From Paludibacteraceae bacterium (lineage in GTDB: Bacteria > Bacteroidota > Bacteroidia > Bacteroidales > Paludibacteraceae): a stretch of 64,000 nt of DNA. The notes beneath the pieces are model-generated. The model worked only from the letters and a program-made list of their open reading frames with translations, was not told the DNA's origin and did not search any database. Positions 677 through 46,942 of the stretch are shown in pieces (positions within the stretch are counted from its first letter, which is position 1; the number at the start of each line of letters is the position of its first letter). The DNA lies in the NCBI GenBank assembly GCA_017467185.1, contig JAFTSS010000085.1, positions 1 through 64,000 on the forward strand, read 5' to 3'. A program made the position numbers and the translations under genes.

Positions 677-952
677 AGATTAATTTGTTTTACGTCTGCC
701 CTTAACAGACATTAAGATTAATATAAATAGAGTGATTAGCATTTTTTATCTTGTTTTGACGATGCAAAATTAGTATGTTTAATTTGTTTGTGCAATAGGT
801 TAACTGGTTCATTTTGGTTCATTTGCATTTGGTGATTATTTGGACTTTACAAAGTAGTGGACGCACAACTCGTGCGTCCACTAAAAATGTTTAACTAAAA
901 AAATTTTTTTTGTGCCTACTTTTGTAATTTAGTACAGTTTAGTATAGTATTT

Positions 953-1050
953 TATGGAAAAATGACAAAATCAAGGAGAAAAAATTATAGAAAAATGACA
1001 GAATTAAGGTGGAAAAGTTATGGAAAAATGACAAAAGTTTGCATAATCCA
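953..1050 (+). repeat. three tandem ~33-bp direct repeats (tatggaaaaatgacaaaa...) upstream of the promoter of the AAA ATPase gene
   Basis: Direct inspection shows units starting near 953, 986 and 1019. Confidence 0.6.
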
Positions 1051-3211: not shown

Positions 3212-4297
3212 TTATTTGTTAGCAGCTTCGAATTCTTGCATGCAAGCTACGAGAGCTTTAACTGATTCAACTGGACATGCGTTGTAGATAGAAGCACGGA
3301 AGCCACCTACTGAACGGTGACCTTTGATACCTACCATACCGCGTTCTTTAGCGAATTCCATGAATGCTTTTTCTTTGTCTTCGTGACCTGGAGCCATTAC
3401 GAAGCAAACGTTCATGATTGAACGGTCTTCTTTAGCAGCAGTACCTACGAACATAGAGTTGCGGTCGATTTCGTTGTAAAGGAGGTCAGCTTTTTCAACG
3501 TTGATTTTGTTCATTGCTTCGAGACCACCGATTTTTTTCACCCATTTCAATGTTTCGTACATAACATAGATAGGGAATACAGGAGGAGTGTTGAACATAG
3601 AGATGTTGCGGTCTTCGTCAGCAGCATGAGTTTTGTAGTTAACCATTGTTTGAAGAGGACGATAGTTCTTTTCAAGAAGGTCGCGACGGATGATAACGAA
3701 AGTAACACCAGCAGGGCCTACGTTCTTTTGAGCACCACCGTAGATCATTGCGTATTTAGTAACGTCAACTGGACGGCTCATGATGTCTGATGACATATCT
3801 GCTACCAAGTCGATTGGGCAGTCCATATCGTAACGGATTTCAGTACCGTAGATAGTGTTGTTAGTTGTGATATGGAAATAGTCAGCATCTGTAGGGATTA
3901 CATAATCTTTAGGGATGTAAGAGTAAGTTTTGTCTTCAGATGAAGCAACAACTTCTACTTCGCCATAGAATTTAGCTTCTTTAGCAGCTTTTTTAGCCCA
4001 AACACCTGTTTGAAGATAAGCAGCTTTTTTGTTCAAAAGGTTAGCAGGTACGTGGAAGAATTGAGTTGAAGCACCACCACCGAGGAACAATACTTCGTAG
4101 TTGTCAGGAATATTCAAAAGATCGCGCCAGAGTTGACGAGTTTCAGCCATAACGCGTTCCCAACCTGGAGTACGGTGAGAAATTTCAAGAATACCGATAC
4201 CTGTGTTGTCAAAGTTACGGATTGCTTCGATAGCAGCTTCTACTGCTTCGCGTGGAAGTACGCAAGGACCTGCGTTGAAATTGTGCATTTGTTTCAT
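3212..4297 (-). CDS. serC: 3-phosphoserine aminotransferase
   Basis: 361 aa. The N-terminus [10 protein letters not shown] and overall similarity match the SerC class-V aminotransferase family. Confidence 0.9.
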
Positions 4298-4478
4298 AGT
4301 AAATTTTTTAATATGTTAAAAAACAGTTAGTTGTTGTTTTTGTGCGTAAAGTATAGTTTACGAGACAAAGGTAAGCATTAAATTGCTTATAAGCAAATTT
4401 TTGAGGAGGAATTTTTCAAAAATGTTTGTTTTTGTGTTTTGGGTAGTTTTTTTAGATATAATAACAGTTTTTTCTTTT

Positions 4479-4725
4479 AGACATAATGACATAAAGACAT
4501 AATTTTTTTTCTGCATACGCCTTGCTACATCTACGATGTATCTTGGCGGAAGAATGACAGACCTATCGGTATTAAAATCTGTCATTCTTTGGTTGAGATG
4601 AAACTTTGGTTTCAGCAAAGCTTATGTTAAGAGTGATAAATTTTGTCATTATGTCATTTTGTCTCAAAATTAATCTGTTTGAAATTAATTTTGAGTGAGT
4701 TTGCTACTATTTATAAGCTCTATTT
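4479..4725 (+). mobile_element. MITE-like element family A, copy 1 (terminal inverted repeats AGACATAATGACA / TGTCATTATGTCAT)
   Basis: Near-identical to copy 2 and similar to copy 3. It has an internal perfect hairpin aagaatgacaga...tctgtcattctt. Confidence 0.7.
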
Positions 4726-4730
4726 CTTTT

Positions 4731-4975
4731 AGACATAATGACATAAAGACATAATTTTTTTTTCTGCATACGCCTTGCTACATCTACGATGTATCTTGGC
4801 GGAAGAATGACAGACCTATCGGTATTAAAATCTGTCATTCTTTGGCTGAGATGAAACTTTGGTTTCAGCAAAGCTTGTGTTAAGAGTGATAAATTTTGTC
4901 ATTATGTCATTTTGTCTTAAAATTAATCTGTTTGAAATTAATTTTGAGTGAGTTTGCTACTATTTAACGTGAGTT
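4731..4975 (+). mobile_element. MITE-like element family A, copy 2 (tandem with copy 1)
   Basis: About 97% identical to 4479-4725. Confidence 0.7.
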
Positions 4976-5368
4976 CGATATAACTTTATAGCACACGGAA
5001 AACACGGATGACACAGAATTTGATTATTTATCTCCCACAGATTTTTTAACAAGATTATTGCTGTGCTCGGCAATTAGAGTAAACTCTATTGCTCTCGCTT
5101 ATCGCAATAATTCACAGATTTCTCAGATATTTTTCTTTCTTTACTATTCGATTTTTATCAAGATTTTGTTTATATTCAGCATAACCCAAATAAATTTGGC
5201 TTCTGCTCTCACTTATCACAAAATTCGCTCTTTTGCTACGCAAAAATAACTTCGTTGAAATTGCTTTCGTTCGGCAACTGAAGTAAACTTCGTTGCTCTC
5301 ACTTATTCGCAATTTTCGCTCTACTGATAACACGGATGCCATACGGCGTTTTATATCGAACGGACGTT
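4966..5368 (+). mobile_element. MITE-like element family B, copy 1 (18-bp TIR AACGTGAGTTCGATATAA / TTATATCGAACGGACGTT), enlarged by an internal duplication
   Basis: Its TIRs are shared with the copies at 14209 and 46690. The flanking hexamer TATTTA is duplicated. The right TIR supplies the last codons and stop of ispG. Confidence 0.65.
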
Positions 5369-6076
5369 ATTTATAAGCTCTAAAAGTTTTTCGATTGCTT
5401 CTTCTTCGGGGATGTTTTTCATTACGCATTCTTTGCCTTTGTAGAGTGAGACTTTACCCATTCCGGCTCCGATGTAGCCAAAGTCGGCATCTGCCATTTC
5501 GCCTGGTCCGTTGACGATACAGCCCATGACGGCGATTTTGAGGCCTACGAAACCTTGTGTGGCTTCTTTGACTTGACGGACTACACGTGGTAGGTCAAAT
5601 TTTGTACGCCCGCAAGATGGACATGAGGTGTATTCGGTTTTGCTGATGCGACAGCGTGATGATTGTAGGATTTCGAATGCTATGTCGTTGACTTGTTCGG
5701 CTGTGATGAATTCAGATTTGTTTGTGAGCCAAATGCCATCGATTAGGCCGTCGATTAGGTATGGTCCGAAGAAAGCTGCTGCGTGTATTTGAAGTGTTTC
5801 TAAATCGTCGAGTTCGAAGTGTTTTTTTAGGATTATTGGTTTGTCTGTTTTGAGTAATTCGTTGAAATTTGATAAATCTTCAACAATTGCAATATTTCCT
5901 TCTAAAGTCATAATCTCATCTGCAGTATAATCAGGTTTTAGTAGGGTGTTAAGTTGTTCGTTTGCTATTACAACTACGGGATTATTACCACCTATTTTGT
6001 CTATTGCAATGCTTTTGCGACGAGAATATTCAGTCTTTAATTTTGTGTTATCAATTTTGCATTTTGCATTTTGCAT
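5351..6076 (-). CDS. ispG: 4-hydroxy-3-methylbut-2-enyl diphosphate synthase, C-terminal segment (insert domain plus 4Fe-4S domain)
   Basis: 241 aa carrying the conserved C-terminal CPSCGRT...KIAVMGCIVNGPGE motif region of IspG/GcpE. It begins with its own ATG inside the heptamer tract. Confidence 0.8.
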   Translation of the reverse strand: MQNAKCKIDNTKLKTEYSRRKSIAIDKIGGNNPVVVIANEQLNTLLKPDYTADEIMTLEGNIAIVEDLSNFNELLKTDKPIILKKHFELDDLETLQIHAAAFFGPYLIDGLIDGIWLTNKSEFITAEQVNDIAFEILQSSRCRISKTEYTSCPSCGRTKFDLPRVVRQVKEATQGFVGLKIAVMGCIVNGPGEMADADFGYIGAGMGKVSLYKGKECVMKNIPEEEAIEKLLELINNVRSI

Positions 6077-6909
6077 TCTACATAGTCAACAAGTTTGCGA
6101 GCTACGGGGATTTCGGCTTCAGGGGCTTCGGATAGGGATACGCGGATTGTGTCGCCAATGCCGTCGTGGAGGAGAGTGCCGATGCCGACTGCTGATTTTA
6201 TGCGTCCTTCGTCGTCGCTGCCAGCTTCGGTTACGCCGAGATGAAGTGGATAGTTTTTGCCTTTGGCGTCCATCATTTGTACTAATAGGCGTACTGCGTA
6301 AATCATTACGCGTGTGTTAGAGGCTTTGACAGAGAGGATTAGGTTGGTAAAGCCTTCTTGCTCGCAGAGTTCGATGAACTCCATACATGAAGTGGCAAGT
6401 CCGAGAGGTGTGTTGCCGTAACGGCTCATGATGCGAGGAGAGAGTGAACCGTGGTTGACGCCGATGCGAATGGCTGTGCCTTTGTCTTTGCAGATAGAGA
6501 GCAGTGTGTGTAGTTTTTCGCGGATACGGCGTAGTTCGTCGTTCCATTCTTCATCGGTGTAGTCGCCATGCTTGCCAGTGACGAAGTTGCCGGGATTGAT
6601 GCGCACTTTTTCAACTAATTGTGCAGCGACCTCAGCTACGTTGGCGTTGAAGTGGATGTCGGCAACGAGGGGTAGGTCGATGCCTTCGGTGCGTAACGCT
6701 TCTTTTATTTTGCCGAGATTTTCGGCTTCTTTTGTGCCTTGTGTGGTGTAGCGGAGTAGTTCTGTGCCAGCTTCGAGACAGTGTTTTGCTTGAGCCACAG
6801 AGGCCTCGATATCGTTAGTGTCGGTGTTGGCCATTGTTTGTATGCGGATAGGGTTGTTGCCACCGATGCGCAAGTTGCCAACTTGAATTTCTTTTGTTTG
6901 TCGTCTCAT
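6037..6909 (-). CDS. ispG: 4-hydroxy-3-methylbut-2-enyl diphosphate synthase, N-terminal TIM-barrel segment (frame-separated from the C-terminal segment)
   Basis: 290 aa with N-terminus MRRQTKEIQVGNLRIGGNNPIRIQTMANTDT, typical of IspG. It ends 40 nt inside the next ORF in a different frame. Confidence 0.8.
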   Translation of the reverse strand: MRRQTKEIQVGNLRIGGNNPIRIQTMANTDTNDIEASVAQAKHCLEAGTELLRYTTQGTKEAENLGKIKEALRTEGIDLPLVADIHFNANVAEVAAQLVEKVRINPGNFVTGKHGDYTDEEWNDELRRIREKLHTLLSICKDKGTAIRIGVNHGSLSPRIMSRYGNTPLGLATSCMEFIELCEQEGFTNLILSVKASNTRVMIYAVRLLVQMMDAKGKNYPLHLGVTEAGSDDEGRIKSAVGIGTLLHDGIGDTIRVSLSEAPEAEIPVARKLVDYVECKMQNAKLITQN

Positions 6910-6959
6910 AATATTTAACTATATGGAAATTTTAACAGAAGTACAAATCTCTTATTTTT

Positions 6960-7190
6960 AGACATAATGACAGAAGAACATATTTTTTTTGTTTATATAT
7001 ACCTCGCTACATCAACGATGTATCTCGGTAAAACAATGACAAACCTACCGGTATCAAAATATGTCATTTTTTTGCCGAGATGAAACTTTAGGTTCAGCAA
7101 GGCATTTGCATATGAGTGATAAATTTTGTCATTATGTCATTCTGTCTGAAAAAATCATTCTGTTTAAAAGAATGAAAATTAAATCTGTAC
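6960..7190 (+). mobile_element. MITE-like element family A, copy 3
   Basis: Same TIRs (agacataatgaca ... tgtcattatgtcattctgtct), about 80% identical to copies 1 and 2. Confidence 0.6.
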
Positions 7191-7213
7191 TTATGTTAAA
7201 AAAGCAATAACTT

Positions 7214-9253
7214 TCAACTAATCTTCAATGGATTGTAGATGTCGTTATCTGTTCCGTCAGATGCAGTTTGTTGTGGGTATATCAATAAGAAGTTGTTGTC
7301 TGCAAAATATTTGTTGAGATAGTAAGGTATTTTTTCGAATAGGTTGTTGTATGATACAGTGGCTTTGCGGGCAGTGATTACGATTAGCGTGTCGCTGTGT
7401 TTTATCTCTTTTGAGATGATAAGGAAATCTTCCCATGACGCTAATTCGCGGAATGATACGTTGAGTGAACTATGTATTTCGCATTGTTTTTTTAGAGCCT
7501 CTGTGGTTGTTTTGTTGGCATAGAATACTATAGGTATGCTGAGTTGCGATGCTATATTTTTGACGCGATCGAACCAAAGGTCGAAACCTATCTCTAATTC
7601 AGCCATTTGTGGTACGGTTACGACTAATCGTTTAACTGAGTTTATAGGTCTTTTAGGACCATAAATTATAAGGTTTTGGTGTGATGTTCCGTTGATTAGG
7701 GCGGTGATTGTTCCTCCTAAGAAAGTATCGACGATGTTGGCTTTGTGGTGAATACCAACGATGAGGTCGGTTATTTTGTTGGCTTGTACGGTGTCGATGA
7801 TACAATTTGATATGTTCAAATCGCATTTCATGATTTGTACTAATTTGTTGTCGGTTGCTGAAGCCAATTTAGCTGCACTTTCTAAGAGTTTTGCGCCAGA
7901 TGTATCTTCTGGGTCGTTGTTGATTTTTAGAGCATAAAGGGTTTTGTTGTTGCGTTGTTTTATGAGGTTGCTTATGTCGAGCAACTGAGGCATGGTTTGA
8001 GGGTTTGATATAGGGATGAGAATGCGCTCGGTGCCAAGGCGTTGACGTTGTTCGTCTTGTTGAGTCTCTTCGATTGCGATTTTGCGGGCAGCGTGTTCGG
8101 TTGCAATTGACGAGATTGTACAGGTTACGAGAATCATTACGATTGTGCCATTGAGCACGTTTTCGTCGAGAAGTCCGATGTTGTAGCCAATCATTACTGC
8201 TGCAAGGGTAGCTGCTGCTTGTCCGTTGCTGAGACCGAAAATTAAGTCGCCTTCTACGCTACTGAGTTTTGATGTTACTTGCGATAATTTTGCTGCCATC
8301 CATTTGGTTACGGTTGCAACGATTGTCATTACCGCAGCGACTTTTACAGATTCAATGCTTGTTATAAAGGCACGTAGGTCGATTTGCATACCAATGCTGA
8401 GAAGGAAGAACGGTATAAATATGGCGTTGCCTACAAATTCGATGCGATTCATGAGTGGCGAAACGCTTGGAATCAATCGGTTGAGTATCAATCCGGCAAA
8501 GAATGCGCCAAGGATACCCTCGAGACCTGCGGCTTGGGCTAATAGCGAAGCGAAGAAGATTATAACCATTACAAAGATGTATTGCGCAACGCTGTCGTTG
8601 AATCGGCGGAGGAAATATTTTGATAGTTTGGGTAGTAGCCAAAATACTATTATGCTGAATATTAAGGTAGATACTCCGAACTTAATCCAATAGGCGCTAT
8701 TCATTTCGCCTTTTGTTGTGGCTACGATAACGGCAAGGATGAGCAAAGAGGCTGTAACTGTGATGATTGTACCTGCAATGGTGATACTTACAGCTCGGTT
8801 TTTTGATATACCCATTTTGCTGACAATAGGGTAGGCTATCAGTGTGTGAGAGGCATACATACTGGCTAACAGAGTGGCGCGTGTGAAGTCCATGTCTAAT
8901 AGCCACATGCCAGTGATGATACCGAAAACCATTGGTAGTATGAATGTATATATGCCGAATAGAATGCTCTTTGTGCTGTTTTGTTTGAAGGTGTTGAGGT
9001 CGATTTCCAAGCCAGCTTGGAACATTATGTATAGAATGCCGACTTTGCCAAATAGTTCGAAGCTGGCATCGTTTGATAGAATGTTAAGTCCGTGAGGGCC
9101 AAAGAGAGTACCTGCTAAAATCAATCCGATTATATGTGGAATTTTGAATCGATTTAGGATAGGTGCGCACAAGATTATCACGATAACCAAAAGAAATATG
9201 GCAATCGGGTCAGTTAAAGGAAACGTTGGTATTAAATCTTCGATATATTTCAT
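7214..9253 (-). CDS. monovalent cation:proton antiporter (CPA/Na+-H+ exchanger family) with C-terminal cytoplasmic domain
   Basis: 679 aa. It has 10-12 predicted TM helices at the N-terminus and a soluble C-terminal half, as in the NhaP/Kef-type exchanger family. Confidence 0.75.
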   Translation of the reverse strand: MKYIEDLIPTFPLTDPIAIFLLVIVIILCAPILNRFKIPHIIGLILAGTLFGPHGLNILSNDASFELFGKVGILYIMFQAGLEIDLNTFKQNSTKSILFGIYTFILPMVFGIITGMWLLDMDFTRATLLASMYASHTLIAYPIVSKMGISKNRAVSITIAGTIITVTASLLILAVIVATTKGEMNSAYWIKFGVSTLIFSIIVFWLLPKLSKYFLRRFNDSVAQYIFVMVIIFFASLLAQAAGLEGILGAFFAGLILNRLIPSVSPLMNRIEFVGNAIFIPFFLLSIGMQIDLRAFITSIESVKVAAVMTIVATVTKWMAAKLSQVTSKLSSVEGDLIFGLSNGQAAATLAAVMIGYNIGLLDENVLNGTIVMILVTCTISSIATEHAARKIAIEETQQDEQRQRLGTERILIPISNPQTMPQLLDISNLIKQRNNKTLYALKINNDPEDTSGAKLLESAAKLASATDNKLVQIMKCDLNISNCIIDTVQANKITDLIVGIHHKANIVDTFLGGTITALINGTSHQNLIIYGPKRPINSVKRLVVTVPQMAELEIGFDLWFDRVKNIASQLSIPIVFYANKTTTEALKKQCEIHSSLNVSFRELASWEDFLIISKEIKHSDTLIVITARKATVSYNNLFEKIPYYLNKYFADNNFLLIYPQQTASDGTDNDIYNPLKIS

Positions 9254-9256
9254 TTG

Positions 9257-9365
9257 GAGTGAGGAATTAGGAATTAGGAATTAGGAATGAGGAATTCGGA
9301 GTTAGGAATTGAATTTCTCAATTCTCAACTTTCAACTTTCAATTTTCAAATTTCAATTTTTTGTA
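9257..9365 (+). repeat. heptamer microsatellites (AGGAATT)n then (TCAACTT/TCAATTT)n immediately 5' of the antiporter start codon
   Basis: Direct inspection. Confidence 0.8.
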
Positions 9366-9854: not shown

Positions 9855-11717
9855 TCAAAGTACTATCTTTTCCACCTCATCACCAACAGCAATCACATAC
9901 ACCCCACGTGGCAATGATAATTGAGCATCACGACCAGTATAAATTAATCGACCATTTACATCAAAGAGTTGATAATCTGCCGACAAACCATCCACATATA
10001 GCACACCGCCCACTGAATATATTGCAATATTTGCATTTTCGGTATTTTCGATTGAAGTATCTTCATCACTTTCTACTACATTGATAAATTCGCCCCAATA
10101 TTCATCATTTGCGTATGCCTCACGAGCTCCTTCTGGCACAATCACAGGGATATTTCTGTTCACATCGAAGAATGTTTTTGCAAAAATAGTTGGAGGCTCG
10201 ATAGCATTCACATTGATTTGTTTCATACGACTACAGAGTGCAAAACAGTTGTCGCCAATGCGTTGTGTAGTCGATGGCAAAGCGAGCGAATCGAGATAAG
10301 TACAACCATAGAATGCCGCATCACCCACTTCGGTTACACCCTCTGGAATTACAAGATTTTCCAACGCATGGCAGTTGTAGAATGCCCAGTTACCGATGCG
10401 TTGCAATGCCACATCGCCATCGGCTGCAGCACGTTTCATGCGCGATGCGAACGATTTAGCCTCAGCTTGACCACCAAATGTGATAGATTTGATAGAACGA
10501 CAATTCTCGAATGCTGCATCATTGATTTCTACCACCGAAGCAGGAATATTTATCTCTTTCAACTGATAGCACTCTGCCATAGCCTTAAATCCAATAGTTT
10601 CGAGATTGCCAGGCAACATCAAGTTCTCCAATTTATAGCAGTCGTAGAATGCCAAGTCGTTGATTGCAGTGTTTGTAGTACCAGCGAGGTCGATAGTATG
10701 AAGCGATTTTTTCGAGCGATTAATATAGTTAAAACCATTCTCATCCAACTCTCCATCAGTGATATGCACCTCAGTCAATTTATTAGAAAATTGGGTTTGA
10801 AATTCTTCCTTAATCGAATTAACCAATTTAGCAGGGCCTTGGAAATAACGAAGGTTTTTAGTTGCGTTAAGAGGATGCCATGTTTCGTCACTAGATTCAT
10901 AAAAATCAAGTTCTACATCATCCCCAAATTCACAAATCAAAGTATCAAGAGAAGAAACCATAGGAATCCATTCATCGCTTTCTTCATCATAAATATTATA
11001 ACAATAAAAAATGCTTTCACCAATATATTTAACTCCACTACCAATTTTTGCATACCTTAATTGCGCACAATCCCTAAAGACTCGTCCTCCAATACAAACT
11101 ACACTATTAGGAATTTCTATTGATGTAAGTCCAGAACATCCCCTAAATGCACTTTCTCCAATAAAAGTTACGCGATTGGGAATTGTGATTGATGTGAGAG
11201 CAGAATAATTATAAAATACATAATCCTTAATAGAGTCAACATCTTCTGGTACAACTACATCTGTTACTTTTTTATTATTTAAATATAAATTTTCTGCATA
11301 GTGTAGGGGGTTAGCAGTACTACAATTCTTAAATTCAATATCAAACCATGCGCCTACATCAAATATATATACATCAACAAGTGAATAACAAGCCAAAAAA
11401 GCATCTCCACCAATAGTTGTTACACTATTTGGGATTGTGATTGAAGTGAGAGATGAACATCTAGAAAATGCAAAATCCCCAATCTCAGTCACACTATATT
11501 CTACACCATTATAGGTTACTTTTTCAGGAATAACAATTTCTGATTGAATATATCCCGCACCATTATCATCCCATAAATACCCCCCATCATTCGTAACAGT
11601 AGCCGTCTTATTCTCATGGTCGAAATCGTAATAGATACCATCGATTTCGGCTTCATAGGCGAATGCCATTGTTGCACTACACAACAATGCAATCAATAAA
11701 AAGTAAATTTTCTTCAT
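9855..11717 (-). CDS. BspA-type leucine-rich-repeat surface protein with T9SS C-terminal sorting domain
   Basis: 620 aa with a signal peptide and repeated IPNSVTxIGxxAFxxCxxL modules (LRR_5/BspA type). The C-terminal approximately 80 aa resemble a Por secretion tail. Confidence 0.7.
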   Translation of the reverse strand: MKKIYFLLIALLCSATMAFAYEAEIDGIYYDFDHENKTATVTNDGGYLWDDNGAGYIQSEIVIPEKVTYNGVEYSVTEIGDFAFSRCSSLTSITIPNSVTTIGGDAFLACYSLVDVYIFDVGAWFDIEFKNCSTANPLHYAENLYLNNKKVTDVVVPEDVDSIKDYVFYNYSALTSITIPNRVTFIGESAFRGCSGLTSIEIPNSVVCIGGRVFRDCAQLRYAKIGSGVKYIGESIFYCYNIYDEESDEWIPMVSSLDTLICEFGDDVELDFYESSDETWHPLNATKNLRYFQGPAKLVNSIKEEFQTQFSNKLTEVHITDGELDENGFNYINRSKKSLHTIDLAGTTNTAINDLAFYDCYKLENLMLPGNLETIGFKAMAECYQLKEINIPASVVEINDAAFENCRSIKSITFGGQAEAKSFASRMKRAAADGDVALQRIGNWAFYNCHALENLVIPEGVTEVGDAAFYGCTYLDSLALPSTTQRIGDNCFALCSRMKQINVNAIEPPTIFAKTFFDVNRNIPVIVPEGAREAYANDEYWGEFINVVESDEDTSIENTENANIAIYSVGGVLYVDGLSADYQLFDVNGRLIYTGRDAQLSLPRGVYVIAVGDEVEKIVL

Positions 11718-12090
11718 AATAATTAAAGTTTTAGTGATTAATATAATTCGTTTTATAAAATAGAGACTATAGGTGAAATAGTAACTATAGGAGCAATAGA
11801 GACTATAGAAACTATAGTAGAGGGGAGATTAAACAGGCGTTAATTTAATATTAGGTGTATCAGGTGGTTATTAAAAATGTACAAATAAAGTGGATGACGG
11901 TTTTTTTCGGCAGAGGTTGTTTGCACCTTCGATAAGGGTAGGTTGTGGATTTAGTTGTACATTTTGACACAAAAAAAACGTGGAATTCGACTGTTGTCGT
12001 TCCACGAACTGAGGCTGTCGCATTGCCTTGAAGTCGGAACAGACAACGCGAAGCCCACGCTGAAATGTATGTATATTTATACCCCTACAG

Positions 12091-12112
12091 GAGACGCAAT
12101 ATATTGCGTCTC
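12091..12112. repeat. palindromic element gagacgcaatatattgcgtctc
   Basis: Perfect 10-bp arms. Confidence 0.7.
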
Positions 12113-12312
12113 TACAGGTATGTACAACATTCCCGTAGGACATCTAACGTTGCAATGCTCTTGACTTCATTAGAAACTGCGACATTTCAGTTCGTCAGAA
12201 CAAAGCGTCGATAAACGCCTATTTATTATTTATATCTTGCGATTCCCACCCGATTGCCCAATCAGCGTGAGTTTCACACCGCAAAGGTAGAAATTATTTT
12301 TGAAATATCCAA

Positions 12313-13251
12313 TTATTCCGAAATAATTTTTACGTTTTCGGCTATTATTGTTTTGTATTTTTCTTTTATTTCGTTTGGTAAGAACGATAGGTCTATCATT
12401 TCATACCATGCAGGAATAGTTTTATTGAATTTTTTGAATATATTGGCAATAGTTTTTTCTTCTAAACCTGAATTTTGCATTGCTATTTCGAAGTCTATTT
12501 TTTTTATCTTCCGTTTTTTGCTATTCAGATTCAATGCCAATTCTTCAGTGTCTTCTGGTAAAACTAATTGTGTTGATAAAAGGTTGTAAGCAGGAGATAA
12601 TATATGTCCGTATCCGATTGGTTTATATAGTGAAAAGTTCTTTAAATGCATATCGGAATTTCCAACTAACCACGAGAATAGAACTATTTCCCAAAATTTG
12701 ATGATGTCTAATTTTGGTACAGATGAATATTTGGCAATTAGTTTCGCTATTTGTTCGTATGACCCTTTATATTTATGCTCTGTTAATCTTTCTGATAATT
12801 GACACATATCTTCCATTGCAAGTTTGTATCCATTGTTTAATCTATCAATGCGACGAGTCAAATAGCAAAGGCGACCATCGGCAATTGGTATCAATGTATG
12901 AGGTACAACGTCAATACCAGATATTTCAGCCAAATGCATAGTTAAATCTTCGATTTCTGGTAGATTGGCATAAATGTCGGTTTGAGGTTTTAATATGTAT
13001 CGTCCCCATAAACCAACAATAGTGAATCTTTTTTCTTTGCTCTCTGTAGTGATATCTAACGAAAGTTTAGCTTGAACCCCAGTTAGTGTGGTTTGACTGC
13101 GAATGACTTCTTCTGCCAATTTGTTTAAATCAGCATGATGAAAATTGGCAATTGGGCACGTTGTATCGTTGAATATTTTTTTTGAACATGTGCGATGAAA
13201 CCCAATTTCGCCATTTTTTAATTCTTTGTAACAATAAAAACATTTAGCCAT
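12313..13251 (-). CDS. HipA-like serine/threonine kinase toxin (HipT-like: kinase core without the HipA N-terminal subdomain, with N-terminal CxxC...HxxC zinc ribbon)
   Basis: 312 aa. It carries the catalytic-loop motif VGNSDMHLKNFSL typical of the HipA family and an N-terminus CFYCYKEL...HRTC. Confidence 0.75.
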   Translation of the reverse strand: MAKCFYCYKELKNGEIGFHRTCSKKIFNDTTCPIANFHHADLNKLAEEVIRSQTTLTGVQAKLSLDITTESKEKRFTIVGLWGRYILKPQTDIYANLPEIEDLTMHLAEISGIDVVPHTLIPIADGRLCYLTRRIDRLNNGYKLAMEDMCQLSERLTEHKYKGSYEQIAKLIAKYSSVPKLDIIKFWEIVLFSWLVGNSDMHLKNFSLYKPIGYGHILSPAYNLLSTQLVLPEDTEELALNLNSKKRKIKKIDFEIAMQNSGLEEKTIANIFKKFNKTIPAWYEMIDLSFLPNEIKEKYKTIIAENVKIISE

Positions 13252-13906: not shown

Positions 13907-14208
13907 TTTTGTGTTGCAAAGGTAGAAATTATTTTTTGAATATCCAATTATTCTAAAATATTTTTTTATTGGTGGTCTGGTAAAAAATAAAGCAATTATT
14001 CAAACTGTTAATAAACAAAGGGGAGATAAGATAATCTTATGAGAGGGGGAGTTTTTAGTTCGACGTTTTCAACGTCGTAGAGTGTGGGGAGTTTTCTTCT
14101 TCTGCAGGTAATTTTTGCGATATCGCTTCGCTTCTCGCAAAAATCACCCGCAGTTACGCATAATTCGACGTTTTCAACGTCGTTGTATCTTGAATTCTCC
14201 TTAATTTT

Positions 14209-14452
14209 AACGTGAGTTCGATATAACTTTATAGCACACGGAGCCAACGGTCTTGAGCCTTGGCGAAAATGCACAGATGACACGGAGATTTTTCATTACA
14301 TACCCCTCTGTTCAGCAGACATATTGAGCGGACGCACGAGCCGTGCGTCCCTACAATGAGGAGGATTTTTGCCGAATTCGCTCTTTTGCTACGCAAAAAA
14401 CGCTCTACGGATTGTACGGATGCCATACGGCATTTTATATCGAACTGACGTT
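14209..14452 (+). mobile_element. MITE-like element family B, copy 2 (244 bp, 18-bp TIRs, flanked by duplicated TTAATTTTA)
   Basis: TIRs aacgtgagttcgatataa / ttatatcgaactgacgtt. It contains an internal palindrome gacgcacgagccgtgcgtc. Confidence 0.7.
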
Positions 14453-14592
14453 AATTTTATTGTGAAATTATAAATATTTTAATTCGCATAGGTTATTTCG
14501 TTTATATGAATTATCATAATATAATTTTTAGCGGACAGTAATAATTTTTTAATGATGGATATTAGAACTTTGTTTTGAATTTATAGAAATCC

Positions 14593-18233: not shown

Positions 18234-18690
18234 TAGTTTAGAGTTAAAAGTTTAGAGTTAAGAGTTAAGAGTTAAGAGTTTAGAGTTAAGAGTTAAGAGT
18301 TTAGTGTTTAGAGTTAAGAGTTAAGAGTTTAGTGTTTAGGGTTAAGAGTTTAGTGTTTAGAGTTAAGAGTTTAGTGTTTAGAGTTTAGTGTTTAGAGTTA
18401 AGAGTTTAGCGTTTAGAGTTAAGAGTTAAGAATTAAGAATTAAAAATTAAAACATTTAATTCCACATTCCACATTCCTCACTCCTCATTCCTCACTCCTC
18501 ATTCCTCATTCCTCATTCCCCATTCCTCATTCCCCATTCCTCATTCCCCATTCCTCATTCTCCATTCCTCATTCCCCATTCCTCATTCCACATTCCACAT
18601 TCCACATTCCTCATTCCTCATTCCCCATTCCTCATTCCACATTACTCATTCCACATTACTCATTCCACATTCCACATTCCTCATTCCTCA
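18234..18690 (+). repeat. two abutting heptamer microsatellite arrays, about 31 x (GAGTTAA/GAGTTTA/GTGTTTA) then about 33 x (CATTCCT/CATTCCA/CATTCCC)
   Basis: Direct inspection. The arrays fill the whole gap between the lptC-like stop and the gldE-like start. Confidence 0.9.
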
Positions 18691-24868: not shown

Positions 24869-25037
24869 AGTAATTTTCAATTTTTGCGTTAAGCGAGAGC
24901 AATGAAAATTATTTCAATTGCCGAGTGGAGCAAAAATCACGACCGAAGGGAGTAATTCTCAATTTTTGCGATAAGCGAGAGCAATGAAAATTATTTCAAT
25001 TGCCGAGCGGAGCAAAAATCACGACCGAAGGGAGTAA
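24869..25037 (+). repeat. tandem duplication of an approximately 84-bp unit (aattttcaatttttgcgttaagcgagagcaatgaaaattatttcaattgccgag...gaagggagta)
   Basis: Two copies about 93% identical. They are flanked by (TAGTTAT)4 on the left and (AACACTC)n on the right. Confidence 0.8.
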
Positions 25038-25140
25038 CTCTCCAACTCTAAACACTCAACACTCAACATTCAACACTCAACACTCAACACTCAACACTCA
25101 ACTCTAAACACTAAACTCTCAACACTAAACTTTATATATT

Positions 25141-32310: not shown

Positions 32311-33241
32311 CTAATCAGCGTTTTTCATATCTATTGAATATTTTAGTCCAATGCGAAATTCATGATATTGCCAATCTTTAATGCCGTATTGATAGGCGAC
32401 GTATGGTTCTAATCCGTATGGGCAAGGAATGCCAATTTTTGTTTTTAATGTCATAGGTTTATCTCCATTATTTTGCCAGCCTATATAACCTCCCCATTCT
32501 GTGATTAGTCGTAAATATAGAGCTTCAAATTCAGCCCTTAATCCATACATGTAGGCATCGTTTTGTTCTGCTCGTCCTGTTTGCCAGCAATAGAATCCGA
32601 TTGACCCAGAAAGACTAAATGATTTTGCCCATTTATTTTCCCAATTTATTTTTTCGGCGAGTGCTAAATCTAAGAAGTATCCTGGAGCATCAATGAATCT
32701 TTTATTCTCAAAATTTCCTCCCGATGCTGTTTTTATGCCTATTCTAACAACTGCCGAAGGTATATATGGTGATGATTTTTTGAACCATTGGTGGTGCAAG
32801 ACTTGAATATTAGTGCTTACATAAATATCTCCAGCAACATTATGCCAATTATTTCGTGTCTCGTATCTCGTATCTCGTGTCTCGTATCTCGTGTCTCATG
32901 TCTCGTGTCTTTTTTTTTGAATAAAAATCCATTACCGAATACCAAGCCTCCAAATTTACCCAACGTGTAAAAAGAGGTATATTCAATCGTAGATTTGGTG
33001 TAAAAGTATTGCTTTGGTCAAATCCTCTAAAGTAACTTCCTGATATTTCTACTGAAAATTTATCTGAAGTTTCTCCCGACGACATCTCTATCACTGGCAA
33101 CGCATTGGGCCCCCACGGCATCTCTTGTCCCCACCCAAACAACGAAAAAAACAAAGCGCAACCTACGAGGCATAACCTCATACATTGCGCTTTAATATTT
33201 AGTTTGTAAGTCATAAGATTATGAGTTAATTTAACTTTCAA
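32311..33241 (-). pseudogene. outer-membrane protein gene split into two frames at a (TGTCTCG)~7.5 heptamer array plus T9 tract (32857-32918); candidate phase-variable or disrupted gene
   Basis: The upstream ORF (33241-32849, with signal peptide) ends inside the array. The downstream ORF (32799-32311) is open through the array in the other frame. Confidence 0.5.
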
Positions 33242-42142: not shown

Positions 42143-42214
42143 CTACTATAGTTCCTATAGGTTCTATAATTCCTCATTCCTCATTTCTCATTTCTCATTT
42201 CTCATTCCTCATTC
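42141..42214 (+). repeat. nonamer (CTATAGNNC) then heptamer (CATTCCT/CATTTCT)x7 array immediately 5' of the helicase start
   Basis: Direct inspection. Confidence 0.8.
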
Positions 42215-46617: not shown

Positions 46618-46689
46618 TAAATATTTCAGAACTAAAGTAGGGACACGGCATGCCGTGTCCGTTGTTAAATGGAATAAAAACACTTAATT

Positions 46690-46942
46690 ACGTCAGTTCG
46701 ATATAAAAATCCGTATGGTATCCGTGTAATCTGTAGAACTATTTTTGCGTAGTAAAAGAGCGAATTCAGCCAAAATCCTTCTCAACGTAGGGACGCACGG
46801 CTCGTGCGTCCGCTTAATATGTCTGTAGAACGGAGGGGTATGTGATAAAAAAATCGTGTTATCCGTGCATTTTTCGCCAAGGCTCAAGACCGTTGGTTCC
46901 GTGTGAGATAAAAGTTATATCGAACTCTCGTTAATTATGAAT
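46690..46942 (-). mobile_element. MITE-like element family B, copy 3 (inverted orientation, flanked by duplicated TTAATTA)
   Basis: About 85% identical to copy 2 over the whole length, with the same 18-bp TIRs. Confidence 0.7.

What the first reader, a model, noticed from the sequence alone, without database searches (positions are those of the whole stretch)
4479..7190. MITE-like family A: three ~230-245-bp copies flanking ispG
Copies at 4479-4725 and 4731-4975 (tandem) and 6960-7190 share terminal inverted repeats AGACATAATGACA / TGTCATTATGTCAT and an internal perfect 12-bp hairpin. No transposase is present, so the element is non-autonomous. The copies sit on both sides of the frame-split ispG.
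Basis: seen in the sequence. Interest (0 to 1): 0.5.

Follow-up and report, generated by a model that had tools for sequence, protein, structure and literature searches.

The report
Small palindromic mobile repeats flanking ispG
The three repeats are real copies of a new but ordinary family of short, non-coding, hairpin-forming mobile DNA found in an uncultured gut Bacteroidales genus. They are present in some close relatives and cleanly absent from others, so they are insertions rather than a conserved regulatory RNA.

Summary
Three copies of a ~195-bp imperfect palindrome lie at 4475-4668, 4727-4921 and 6953-7156. Each has 31-nt inverted arms built from three 8-nt units (AGACATAA) and a three-hairpin core.

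- **Tandem pair.** Copies 1 and 2 are one 253-bp segmental duplication, not two insertions. An independent assembly carries the same duplication.
- **Distribution.** Full-length copies occur only in Candidatus Aphodosoma-like Bacteroidales, at three or more loci.
- **Evidence for insertion.** Relatives have empty sites. One copy interrupts a 16-27-nt gene junction and is flanked by a perfect 12-bp direct repeat. Two near-identical genomes (flanks 95-100% identical) differ by a ~290-nt block holding the element.
- **Cross-species identity.** The block is 96-97.5% identical between species whose ispG four-fold sites are only 46-62% identical. This fits recent horizontal spread by short recombination tracts.
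- **What was not found.** No transposase, no Rfam match, and no target duplication at the window copies.
- **Shared module.** The right arm plus tail matches the unit of 44-45-nt minisatellite arrays that are common in other gut Bacteroidota.
- **ispG frame split.** This is unrelated to the repeats. It is the loss of one heptamer repeat unit.

Verdict: a new member of a known kind (MITE-like palindromic repeat). Modest interest.

The parts
4471..4723 (+). Tandem unit 1 (253 bp). It contains the family-A palindrome (4475-4668), a tail hairpin and a duplicated piece of the ispG 3' end.
   Evidence: Tandem Repeats Finder gives period 253, 2.0 copies, 98% matches. Family D2 is 99% identical.
4475..4668 (+). 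Copy 1 palindrome. Left arm 4475-4505, three-hairpin core 4506-4637, right arm 4638-4668.
   Evidence: Inverted repeat I3, 31 nt, 87% complementary. MFE -78.6 kcal/mol, z = -9.3. On the alignment, 94% of cells pair and 5 pairs show double-sided changes.
4663..4695 (+). AT-rich tail hairpin after copy 1. In relatives with a single copy, the ispG stop codon lies inside this hairpin.
   Evidence: Fold. Sequences of L003 and L137.
4724..4966 (+). Tandem unit 2. Palindrome 4727-4921, hairpin 4916-4948. Its tail is cut at 4966 by the family-B insertion.
   Evidence: L148 carries the same arrangement.
4967..5367 (+). Nested, unrelated MITE (family B). Its inverted ends are ACGTGAGTTCGATATAA / TTATATCGAACGGACGT, flanked by the target duplication TATTTA (4961-4966 and 5368-5373). 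It supplies the last codons and the stop codon of ispG in this strain. It is context, not part of family A.
   Evidence: I8, D16. Other copies lie at 14206-14456 and 46686-46937, with AT-rich 6-9-bp duplications.
6953..7156 (+). Copy 3 palindrome. Left arm ~6953-6986, core, right arm 7121-7154.
   Evidence: It is 97% identical to the orthologous copy in L003. The site is empty or holds other content in L150, L151, L149, L136 and L019.
7155..7177 (+). Tail hairpin of copy 3. The right arm plus this tail equals one unit of the 44-45-nt minisatellite found in other Bacteroidota.
   Evidence: AAAAAATCATTCTGT matches the array spacer at 14 of 15 positions, and 0 of 2000 shuffles score as high.
6930..6949 (+). 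Left half of an outer inverted repeat (TTTTAACAGAAGTACAAATC) that encloses copy 3.
   Evidence: Read. The same outer repeat encloses a different core in L136.
7181..7203 (+). Right half of the outer inverted repeat (AAATCTGTACTTATGTTAAAAAA).
   Evidence: Read.
4366..4397 (-). Bacteroidetes-type promoter of the serC-like gene (TTTG, 20 nt, TACCTTTG). It lies between copy 1 and the gene, so copy 1 is upstream of this promoter and not in the 5' UTR of a transcript started here.
   Evidence: Motif scan. The promoter block is conserved in filled and empty relatives.
6054..6077 (-). Heptamer repeat (ATTTTGC x 3.4 on the + strand) at the ispG frame split.
   Evidence: L148 has four units and an intact 521-aa ispG, and this is the only indel in 6.4 kb.

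Best explanation
**What it is.** The three copies belong to a previously undescribed, low-copy family of ~195-bp AT-rich imperfect palindromes in Candidatus Aphodosoma-like Bacteroidales. It is a MITE-like, non-autonomous repeat. Each element has two 31-nt inverted arms, each made of three 8-nt units (AGACATAA). The arms enclose a core of three hairpins, so a single strand folds into a long stem capped by a three-way junction.

**Shown.**
- The elements are insertions relative to close relatives.
- One insertion is flanked by a 12-bp target-type duplication.
- The element-bearing block has moved between species-level lineages on a recombination tract of roughly 0.3-0.4 kb.
- Copies 1 and 2 in this window arose by a 253-bp segmental duplication. 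A second, unrelated MITE then inserted into copy 2's tail.

**Inferred.**
- Original insertion depends on a transposase supplied in trans that recognises the repeated arm units.
- Once in place, the element spreads mainly by homologous recombination between strains.
- Each known copy begins about 8-60 nt after the stop codon of a co-directional upstream gene. It is therefore probably transcribed as a 3'-UTR or intercistronic hairpin, with at most incidental effects on mRNA processing or stability.
For: **Repeat and fold**
- The repeat and palindrome are real.

**Restricted distribution**
- Full-length copies were found only in Aphodosoma MAGs and related metagenome contigs.

**Empty sites**
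- The glycosyltransferase (GT2) and formiminotransferase-cyclodeaminase (FTCD) genes are 16-27 nt apart in L142-L145. In L001/L002 they are 306 nt apart.
- Within that spacer, a 228-nt insert is flanked by a perfect 12-bp direct repeat, AATTATTTATTT. One copy of the repeat contains the native stop codon of the GT2 gene.
- The ispG|serC spacer is 134-140 nt and holds only the serC promoter in L150 and L151. It is 387 nt in L137 and 1053 nt in the window.
- The nhaP|ispG spacer ranges from overlapping genes (L150) to 304 nt.

**Recent horizontal spread**
- L136 (filled) and L150 (empty) have flanks that are 95-100% identical. Informative sites switch to the L137 type about 45 nt before the ispG stop and switch back at the serC promoter.
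- The element is 96-97.5% identical across lineages whose ispG four-fold sites are 46-62% identical. The high-identity block coincides with the insert.

**Decay and variation**
- Rearranged fragments lie at a fourth locus (L150:7694-7911).

**Negative evidence against alternatives**
- No coding capacity is conserved.
- No Rfam family matches.

**Origin of the tandem pair**
- The duplication junction lies outside the arms. The same arrangement appears in an independent assembly.
Against: - No transposase or IS with matching ends was found in the window, in about 1.5 Mb of fetched loci, or in the plasmid, phage and viral collections.
- The three window copies have no target duplication.
- Only three full loci are known, fewer than is typical for a MITE.
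- The one between-lineage transfer that could be mapped is by recombination, not transposition.
- Substitutions among orthologues are three times rarer in paired than in unpaired columns. Four of the six changes in paired columns keep pairing, and five pairs show compensatory changes between paralogues. This could reflect selection on a folded RNA. It could also come from hairpin-templated repair.
- All three full copies have the same orientation relative to their flanking genes (3 of 3; chance probability 0.25).
Confidence: 0.6

Rival explanations
1. The elements are exapted structured RNAs under purifying selection. They would act either as cis-acting intercistronic or 3'-UTR stem-loops (RNase III site, 3'-end protection, insulation between ispG and serC) or as a small family of ~200-nt trans-acting RNAs. 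Their mobile-element features would then be historical.
For: - The elements are the most conserved segments of the locus: 93-100% per 60-nt window, against 52-97% in the flanking coding and spacer windows.
- They are 96-97.5% identical across lineages, against 46-62% at ispG four-fold sites.
- The three-way-junction fold is shared by three paralogues that are about 80% identical. 94% of cells pair and 5 pairs show double-sided changes, a number reached by 0 of 500 shuffles.
- Variable sites among orthologues favour unpaired columns (7 of 53 against 6 of 144). The four pair-preserving changes are all G-U on the + strand.
- Each copy starts about 8-60 nt after an upstream gene's stop codon, always in the same orientation.
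Against: - The position is not conserved. Close relatives, including one of the same species (L150 against L136), lack the element entirely and keep intact, adjacent or even overlapping genes.
- The L136 mosaic shows recent import of the block, which explains the high identity without selection.
- No Bacteroidetes-type promoter (TAnnTTTG) is conserved upstream of the element on either strand, and there is no terminator-like U-tract.
- The G-U against A-C strand test is inconclusive across paralogues.
- No Rfam match.
- Only three independent paralogues support the covariation, and hairpin-templated repair can produce the same pattern.
Confidence: 0.22
2. The arms are a DNA-level protein-binding module: iteron- or centromere-like 8-bp repeats, or the recombination sites of an invertible DNA switch. 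The palindrome would matter as double-stranded DNA, not as a folded strand.
For: - The arms are arrays of an 8-bp unit.
- The same 22-40-nt module forms tandem arrays with 44-45-nt spacing at many chromosomal sites in other Bacteroidota. 70 of 120 loci have two or more exact copies. This resembles iterated binding sites.
- L116 and L104 carry the same arms around unrelated cores.
Against: - Compensatory changes occur in the core hairpins, which double-stranded binding does not require.
- No recombinase or partition gene lies nearby.
- The core has the same orientation in all 14 orthologous or duplicated copies seen across nine assemblies, so there is no sign of inversion.
- No conserved neighbouring gene family accompanies the arrays.
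Confidence: 0.08

Closest known systems
BrickBuilt and MITEPgRS elements of Porphyromonas gingivalis (Klein et al. 2015, PMC4596501)
   Same: These are also Bacteroidales intergenic, non-coding, MITE-like repeats. They combine short inverted ends with a trapped minisatellite (23- or 41-nt units). They are always intergenic, number ~10-20 per genome, and break assemblies. The arm-plus-tail module of family A is likewise the unit of 44-45-nt minisatellite arrays with conserved leader and tail sequences in other Bacteroidota.
   Different: There is no sequence relationship. The BrickBuilt unit is AGAYCATARTATCCTCTCRTRTG and its inverted ends are GAGACCTTTGCA, which match ISPg1/ISPg9. In family A the repeat units form the inverted arms themselves rather than an internal direct array. 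No matching IS is known.
Correia elements (NEMIS/CREE) of Neisseria
   Same: From established knowledge: these are 100-155-bp elements with ~26-bp inverted ends and no coding capacity. They lie close to genes, are co-transcribed, and fold into long hairpins that RNase III cleaves. Presence or absence differs between strains.
   Different: Correia elements number in the hundreds per genome and duplicate a TA target. Family A is low-copy. Its window copies have no duplication, and the one insertion with a clean empty site has a 12-bp duplication. Whether the arm stem is cleaved by RNase III is untested.
ERIC (IRU) sequences of Enterobacteriaceae
   Same: From established knowledge: these are ~127-bp imperfect palindromes in transcribed intergenic regions. 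Their distribution is patchy, some copies are orthologous between species, and they show compensatory changes that keep the hairpin.
   Different: A different phylum, and no sequence similarity was seen. Family A is longer, has periodic arms and a three-hairpin core, and its cross-species identity is here traced to a recent recombination tract.
REP / BIME / REPIN elements with RAYT transposases
   Same: Extragenic palindromes with a mosaic, modular architecture and no target duplication at most copies. Family A also shows modular layers: an outer inverted repeat around copy 3, and the same arms around other cores.
   Different: REPs are 20-40-nt units with a conserved GTAG-type head, are present in hundreds of copies, and are tied to a RAYT gene. 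None of these features was seen here.

Membership tests
MITE (miniature inverted-repeat transposable element) | Small (50-800 bp), AT-rich, with no coding capacity | tested here: met
   The palindrome is ~195 bp (253 bp with its tail). ORFs inside it are short and not conserved between copies.
MITE (miniature inverted-repeat transposable element) | Terminal inverted repeats | tested here: met
   31-nt arms, 87% complementary, in every copy. The arms are invariant over 15-18 nt across paralogues.
MITE (miniature inverted-repeat transposable element) | Target-site duplication flanking the element | tested here: inconclusive
   None of 7 bp or more abutting the arm ends at the window copies, their orthologues or L116; the only 7-nt repeat, at the L003 orthologue of copy 1, lies 6 nt and 60 nt from the arm ends. 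The L001 insertion has a perfect 12-bp direct repeat that abuts the left arm and recurs 33 nt after the right arm.
MITE (miniature inverted-repeat transposable element) | Filled and empty sites among related genomes | tested here: met
   GT2|FTCD is empty in L142-L145. ispG|serC is empty in L150 and L151. nhaP|ispG is empty in L150. L136 and L150 have 95-100% identical flanks.
MITE (miniature inverted-repeat transposable element) | Many dispersed copies per genome | tested here: inconclusive
   Three full loci in one MAG (L002, L003 x 2), plus fragments in L150. No further copy was found in the other 61 kb of the window or in ~75 kb of relatives. A whole-genome census was not possible.
MITE (miniature inverted-repeat transposable element) | An autonomous IS with the same ends in the same or a related genome | tested here: inconclusive
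   None was found in the window or in the fetched loci. The plasmid and phage BLAST searches and the viral scans, which used only the whole element or MITE-spaced arm pairs, found no copies. Complete genomes could not be scanned a second time.
Any Rfam RNA family (6S, Y RNA, riboswitches, ribozymes and others) | Match to a curated covariance model | tested here: not met
   The only hit above the gathering score in the window is a tRNA. In 4300-7300, all hits at E<=10 are chance-level snoRNA or miRNA models.
BrickBuilt MITE of P. gingivalis | 23-nt unit AGAYCATARTATCCTCTCRTRTG and GAGACCTTTGCA-type inverted ends | tested here: not met
   Neither the published unit nor the published ends resemble the family-A arms or core.
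Invertible promoter (inverton) | Segment found in both orientations, a recombinase, and a promoter inside | tested here: not met
   All orthologous copies have one orientation. No recombinase lies nearby. No conserved TAnnTTTG promoter lies inside.
Type III toxin-antitoxin or CRISPR-like arrays (considered for the 44-45-nt arrays) | Unique spacers, or an adjacent toxin or cas gene | tested here: not met
   The units are constant and have no unique spacers. Neighbouring genes are unrelated housekeeping genes such as susC, feoB and HU.

The most novel reading that the evidence does not exclude
The 22-40-nt arm-plus-tail module (TTGTCATTATGTCATTCTGTCT plus an A-rich spacer) may be a recognition unit for a still unknown protein or RNA-level machinery shared across Bacteroidales. 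It builds two kinds of element: modular palindromes with exchangeable cores (family A, L116, L104) and long minisatellite arrays. Under this reading, the near-identity of the element across Aphodosoma species reflects a selected, gene-specific sweep of a functional structured RNA, not selfish spread.
Probability: 0.15. Interest if true: 0.55.

Novelty: new member of a known kind. Interest (0 to 1): 0.3.

Why it matters
The practical value is mostly for annotation. These repeats, the unrelated family-B MITE and the many heptamer microsatellites fill the intergenic spacers of this genus. They break short-read assemblies at these loci. They also change gene ends: the last codons and stop of ispG are supplied by repeat DNA.

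The locus gives a clean natural example of a small non-coding insert being passed between species on a recombination tract of roughly 0.3-0.4 kb. It also shows that high cross-species identity of an intergenic element can mislead one into calling it a conserved regulatory RNA.

The shared module between these palindromes and widespread Bacteroidota minisatellites is a lead for whoever looks for the mobilising enzyme.

Tried and rejected
- **Rfam.** Searches at gathering and permissive thresholds found nothing.
- **BLAST of the element.** No match against plasmids or phages.
- **Viral-contig scans.** A scan with the arm 17-mer gave chance matches or generic TGTCAT iteron-like arrays. Three further scans, with the core loop and with gapped arms, gave zero hits.
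- **Literature.** Searches for the arm sequence and for Bacteroidales MITEs returned only the P. gingivalis work.
- **CRISPR array or type III antitoxin array.** Considered for the 44-45-nt spaced hits and rejected. The units are constant and there is no conserved neighbour.
- **Apparent composite transposon.** A left-arm-like motif ~5.7 kb from the arrays in about 10 loci looked like one. It is a chance match inside a coding region.
- **Hammerhead-like CUGAnGA/GAAA core.** Checked by eye. The motif is not there, and GAGAU simply pairs within helix 5.
- **Retron, Y RNA or 6S RNA.** No reverse transcriptase or Rsr gene nearby, and no Rfam hit.
- **Strand assignment.** G-U against A-C counts and fold energies are inconclusive. 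Paralogue A favours the + strand, while B and C do not.
- **Promoter and terminator scans.** No conserved promoter or terminator belongs to the element. Only the serC promoter was found.
- **Spurious-ORF search.** Searching the protein database with an ORF from the element found only the same locus in other assemblies.
- **My own intermediate reading.** I first read the element as a conserved structured RNA under strong purifying selection, based. The empty sites and the L136/L150 mosaic undermined this.
Full report
**The observation**

Reading 4200-7500 and running repeat finders confirms three copies. Two form a head-to-tail duplication of period 253 at 4471-4966, with 98-99% identity. The third lies at about 6953-7156 and is about 80% identical to them.

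Each copy is an imperfect palindrome. A 31-nt left arm (4475-4505) pairs with a right arm (4638-4668) at 87% complementarity. The arms are three tandem copies of an 8-nt unit (GACATAAT), so two pairing registers 8 nt apart are possible.

The 132-nt core holds three hairpins.

Folding gives a long closing stem capped by a three-way junction, far more stable than shuffled sequence (z = -9.3 and -6.6 on the + strand). The complementary strand folds similarly.

The arm motif occurs 13 times in the window against about 1 expected.

**Surroundings**

All flanking genes are on the minus strand:

| Gene | Coordinates |
|---|---|
| Class-V aminotransferase (serC-like) | 3212-4297 |
| ispG, as two overlapping ORFs | 5351-6076 and 6037-6909 |
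| Na+/H+ exchanger (nhaP) | 7214-9253 |

No transposase or recombinase domain appears in these ORFs or in six further ORFs between 137 and 18226. No Rfam family matches.

A canonical Bacteroidetes promoter for the serC-like gene (TTTG, 20 nt, TACCTTTG) lies between copy 1 and that gene. Copy 1 therefore sits between the ispG stop and this promoter.

**The tandem pair is a segmental duplication**

Related contigs carry a single copy between ispG and serC (L003; L137-L141). In these, the ispG stop codon lies inside the small AT-rich hairpin that follows the right arm.

In the window, the duplicated unit includes 4 nt to the left of the arm and about 55 nt to the right. That right-hand stretch contains ispG's last codons. 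The junction is therefore not at the element's ends.

A second, unrelated element (family B, 4967-5367) is inserted in the tail of unit 2. Its inverted ends are ACGTGAGTTCGATATAA / TTATATCGAACGGACGT, and it is flanked by the duplication TATTTA. Other family-B copies, at 14206-14456 and 46686-46937, have their own AT-rich 6-9-bp duplications.

An independent ENA assembly (L148) matches the window at 99.89% over 6.4 kb and includes both the duplication and the family-B insert. The arrangement is therefore real.

**Relatives elsewhere**

An exact-arm scan of one genome per species found the element only in Candidatus Aphodosoma MAGs. It recovered the syntenic locus (L003) and a third locus (L001/L002). 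That third locus lies between a family-2 glycosyltransferase gene (GT2) and a formiminotransferase-cyclodeaminase gene (FTCD).

Two of them carry the arms as a full-length palindrome: L019, which is syntenic and is a family-A copy, and L116, which has the same arms around an unrelated hairpin core. L104 has a minimal 12-bp arm hairpin.

The remaining loci are tandem arrays of a 44-45-nt unit:
- 70 of 120 loci have two or more exact 22-mers, with spacings of 44 or 45 nt and multiples of these.
- They lie in intergenic regions of SusC- and FeoB-encoding Bacteroidota contigs.

Homology extends beyond the search bait. The tail of copy 3 matches the array spacer at 14 of 15 positions, and 0 of 2000 shuffles score as high. 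The element's arms are therefore inverted units of a minisatellite that is widespread in the order.

This parallels the BrickBuilt and MITEPgRS elements of P. gingivalis, but there is no sequence homology with them (PMC4596501).

**A misleading signal**

Between the window and L003, L019 or L136, the element is 96-97.5% identical. Four-fold degenerate sites of the adjacent ispG are only 46-62% identical. In a sliding-window comparison, the two elements are the most conserved parts of the locus.

The fold is kept in three paralogues:
- 94% of cells pair.
- Five pairs show double-sided changes, a number reached by 0 of 500 shuffles.
- Variable sites among orthologues favour unpaired columns.

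Taken alone, this looks like a conserved structured RNA.

**The decisive comparisons**

I fetched orthologous loci from more relatives through homologues of the flanking proteins.

*GT2|FTCD junction.*
- In L142-L145 the two genes are 16-27 nt apart.
- In L001 the spacer is 306 nt.
- Within it, a 228-nt insert (element plus 33-nt tail) is flanked by a perfect 12-bp direct repeat, AATTATTTATTT. One copy of the repeat holds the native GT2 stop codon.

*ispG|serC spacer.*

| Locus | Spacer |
|---|---|
| L150, L151 | 134-140 nt; serC promoter only |
| L149 | A different palindrome |
| L137 | 387 nt |
| Window | 1053 nt |

*nhaP|ispG spacer.*

| Locus | Spacer |
|---|---|
| L150 | Genes overlap (ATGA) |
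| L151 | 91 nt, no element |
| L149, L019, L136 | Other repeat modules |
| Window, L148, L003 | Copy 3 |

*L136 against L150.*
- These two are the same species. Their flanks are 95-100% identical, and ispG third codon positions are 86% identical, the same as window against L137.
- L136 carries the element and L150 does not.
- Informative sites show L136 switching from the L150 type to the L137 type about 45 nt before the ispG stop. It switches back exactly at the serC promoter.

The element-bearing block has therefore been exchanged between lineages on a tract of roughly 0.3-0.4 kb. That explains its near-identity across species without invoking strong selection. L150 also carries rearranged fragments of the family in another spacer.

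**Interpretation**

The family behaves as mobile, non-autonomous, palindromic repeat DNA. It is MITE-like in anatomy, with one insertion that has a clean target-type duplication, and with horizontal spread by homologous recombination.

What mobilises it is unknown, because no IS with matching ends was found.

Each full copy starts about 8-60 nt after the stop codon of a co-directional upstream gene. It is therefore probably transcribed as a 3'-UTR or intercistronic hairpin. That step, and any effect on mRNA fate, is inference.

The structured-RNA reading is not excluded. It is supported by compensatory changes and by the consistent orientation in 3 of 3 copies. It is weakened by several points:
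- The empty sites in relatives.
- The absence of a conserved promoter or terminator.
- The inconclusive strand tests.
- Hairpin-templated repair can produce the same compensatory pattern.

**The frame-split ispG**

Relatives with the same elements have an intact ispG of 520-548 aa. The split coincides with a heptamer repeat at 6054-6077.

L148 has four units where the window has three, and this is the only indel in 6.4 kb. Other lineages carry a different heptamer (CTCAACT) in frame at the same inter-domain linker. The elements did not cause the split.

**Verdict**

Four corrections apply: the tandem pair is a segmental duplication, copy number is low, the window copies have no target duplication, and spread is by recombination. 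This is a new family of a known kind and is of modest interest.

Noticed in passing
window 4967-5367; 14206-14456; 46686-46937 (minus strand); partial at 24879-25020: A second, unrelated MITE family (B). Its inverted ends are ACGTGAGTTCGATATAA / TTATATCGAAC(T/G)GACGT, with AT-rich 6-9-bp target duplications (TATTTA, TTAATTTTA, TAATTA). The copy at 4967 is nested in the tail of family-A copy 2 and supplies the last codons and stop of ispG (NNVRSI* instead of NNSKLTQN*).
   Followed up: partly
window 6054-6077 (ispG linker): The ispG frame split is a one-unit difference in a heptamer repeat: ATTTTGC x 3.4 here, against four units in the otherwise 99.89%-identical L148, which encodes an intact 521-aa protein. 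Other lineages carry a different heptamer (CTCAACT x ~5) in frame at the same inter-domain linker. ispG length varies from 520 to 548 aa among relatives.
   Followed up: yes
window 18235-18690; 9262-9360; 25043-25130; 32854-32910; 42169-42214 and many others: The intergenic spacers of this genome are packed with 7-nt (also 9-nt) microsatellites. Examples are AGTTAAG x 30 followed directly by ATTCCTC x 33, and AGGAATT x 7 next to AATTTTC x 7, which could pair with G-U wobbles. The same habit is seen in relatives (CTCAACT runs in L019). No explanation is offered.
   Followed up: no
L016-L135 (for example L027:5690-6010, L060:8340-9060): Tandem arrays of a 44-45-nt unit (CATTTGTCATTATGTCATTCTGTCTTCAAAAAAATCATCTGTCTC), with conserved leader and tail sequences. 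They occur at many intergenic sites in SusC-encoding gut Bacteroidota. One 1.64-Mb contig (BNJV01002552.1) has at least five. The unit is homologous to the right arm plus tail of family A.
   Followed up: partly
L116:9615-9800 and L104:5710-5780: The same arm sequence encloses an unrelated 21-bp hairpin core between convergent genes (L116). In L104 it forms a minimal 12-bp hairpin just after an ABC ATPase gene. The arms and cores of these palindromes appear to be exchangeable modules.
   Followed up: partly
window 6930-6949 and 7181-7203; L136:1-300: Copy 3 is enclosed by an outer inverted repeat (TTTTAACAGAAGTAC / GTACTTATGTTAAAA). In L136 the same outer repeat, partly duplicated, encloses a different ~230-nt core. 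This suggests another palindromic family, with family A nested in it or replacing its core.
   Followed up: partly
window 952-1036: A 33-nt unit repeated 2.6 times (TTATGGAAAAATGACAAAATCAAGGAGAAAAAA) lies just upstream of an AAA_14/DUF4143 ATPase gene (1091-2446). It carries an AATGACA motif like the family-A arms.
   Followed up: no
window 9855-13251 compared with L149, L150 and L151: The BspA-type leucine-rich-repeat gene and the HipA-like kinase gene (HipBA-like module in L148) lie between the SurA-like gene and nhaP in this strain and in L148. They are absent from that position in L149-L151, where the SurA-like gene is followed directly by nhaP. L151 carries a HipBA-like module elsewhere.
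   Followed up: no
L149:11570-11830: In this relative the ispG|serC spacer holds yet another palindrome (AACATAAATTGCCGTAAATT ... AATTTACGAC ... AAATTTATGTT), followed by one degenerate arm-type unit. This spacer seems to be a recurrent landing site for different palindromic elements.
   Followed up: no
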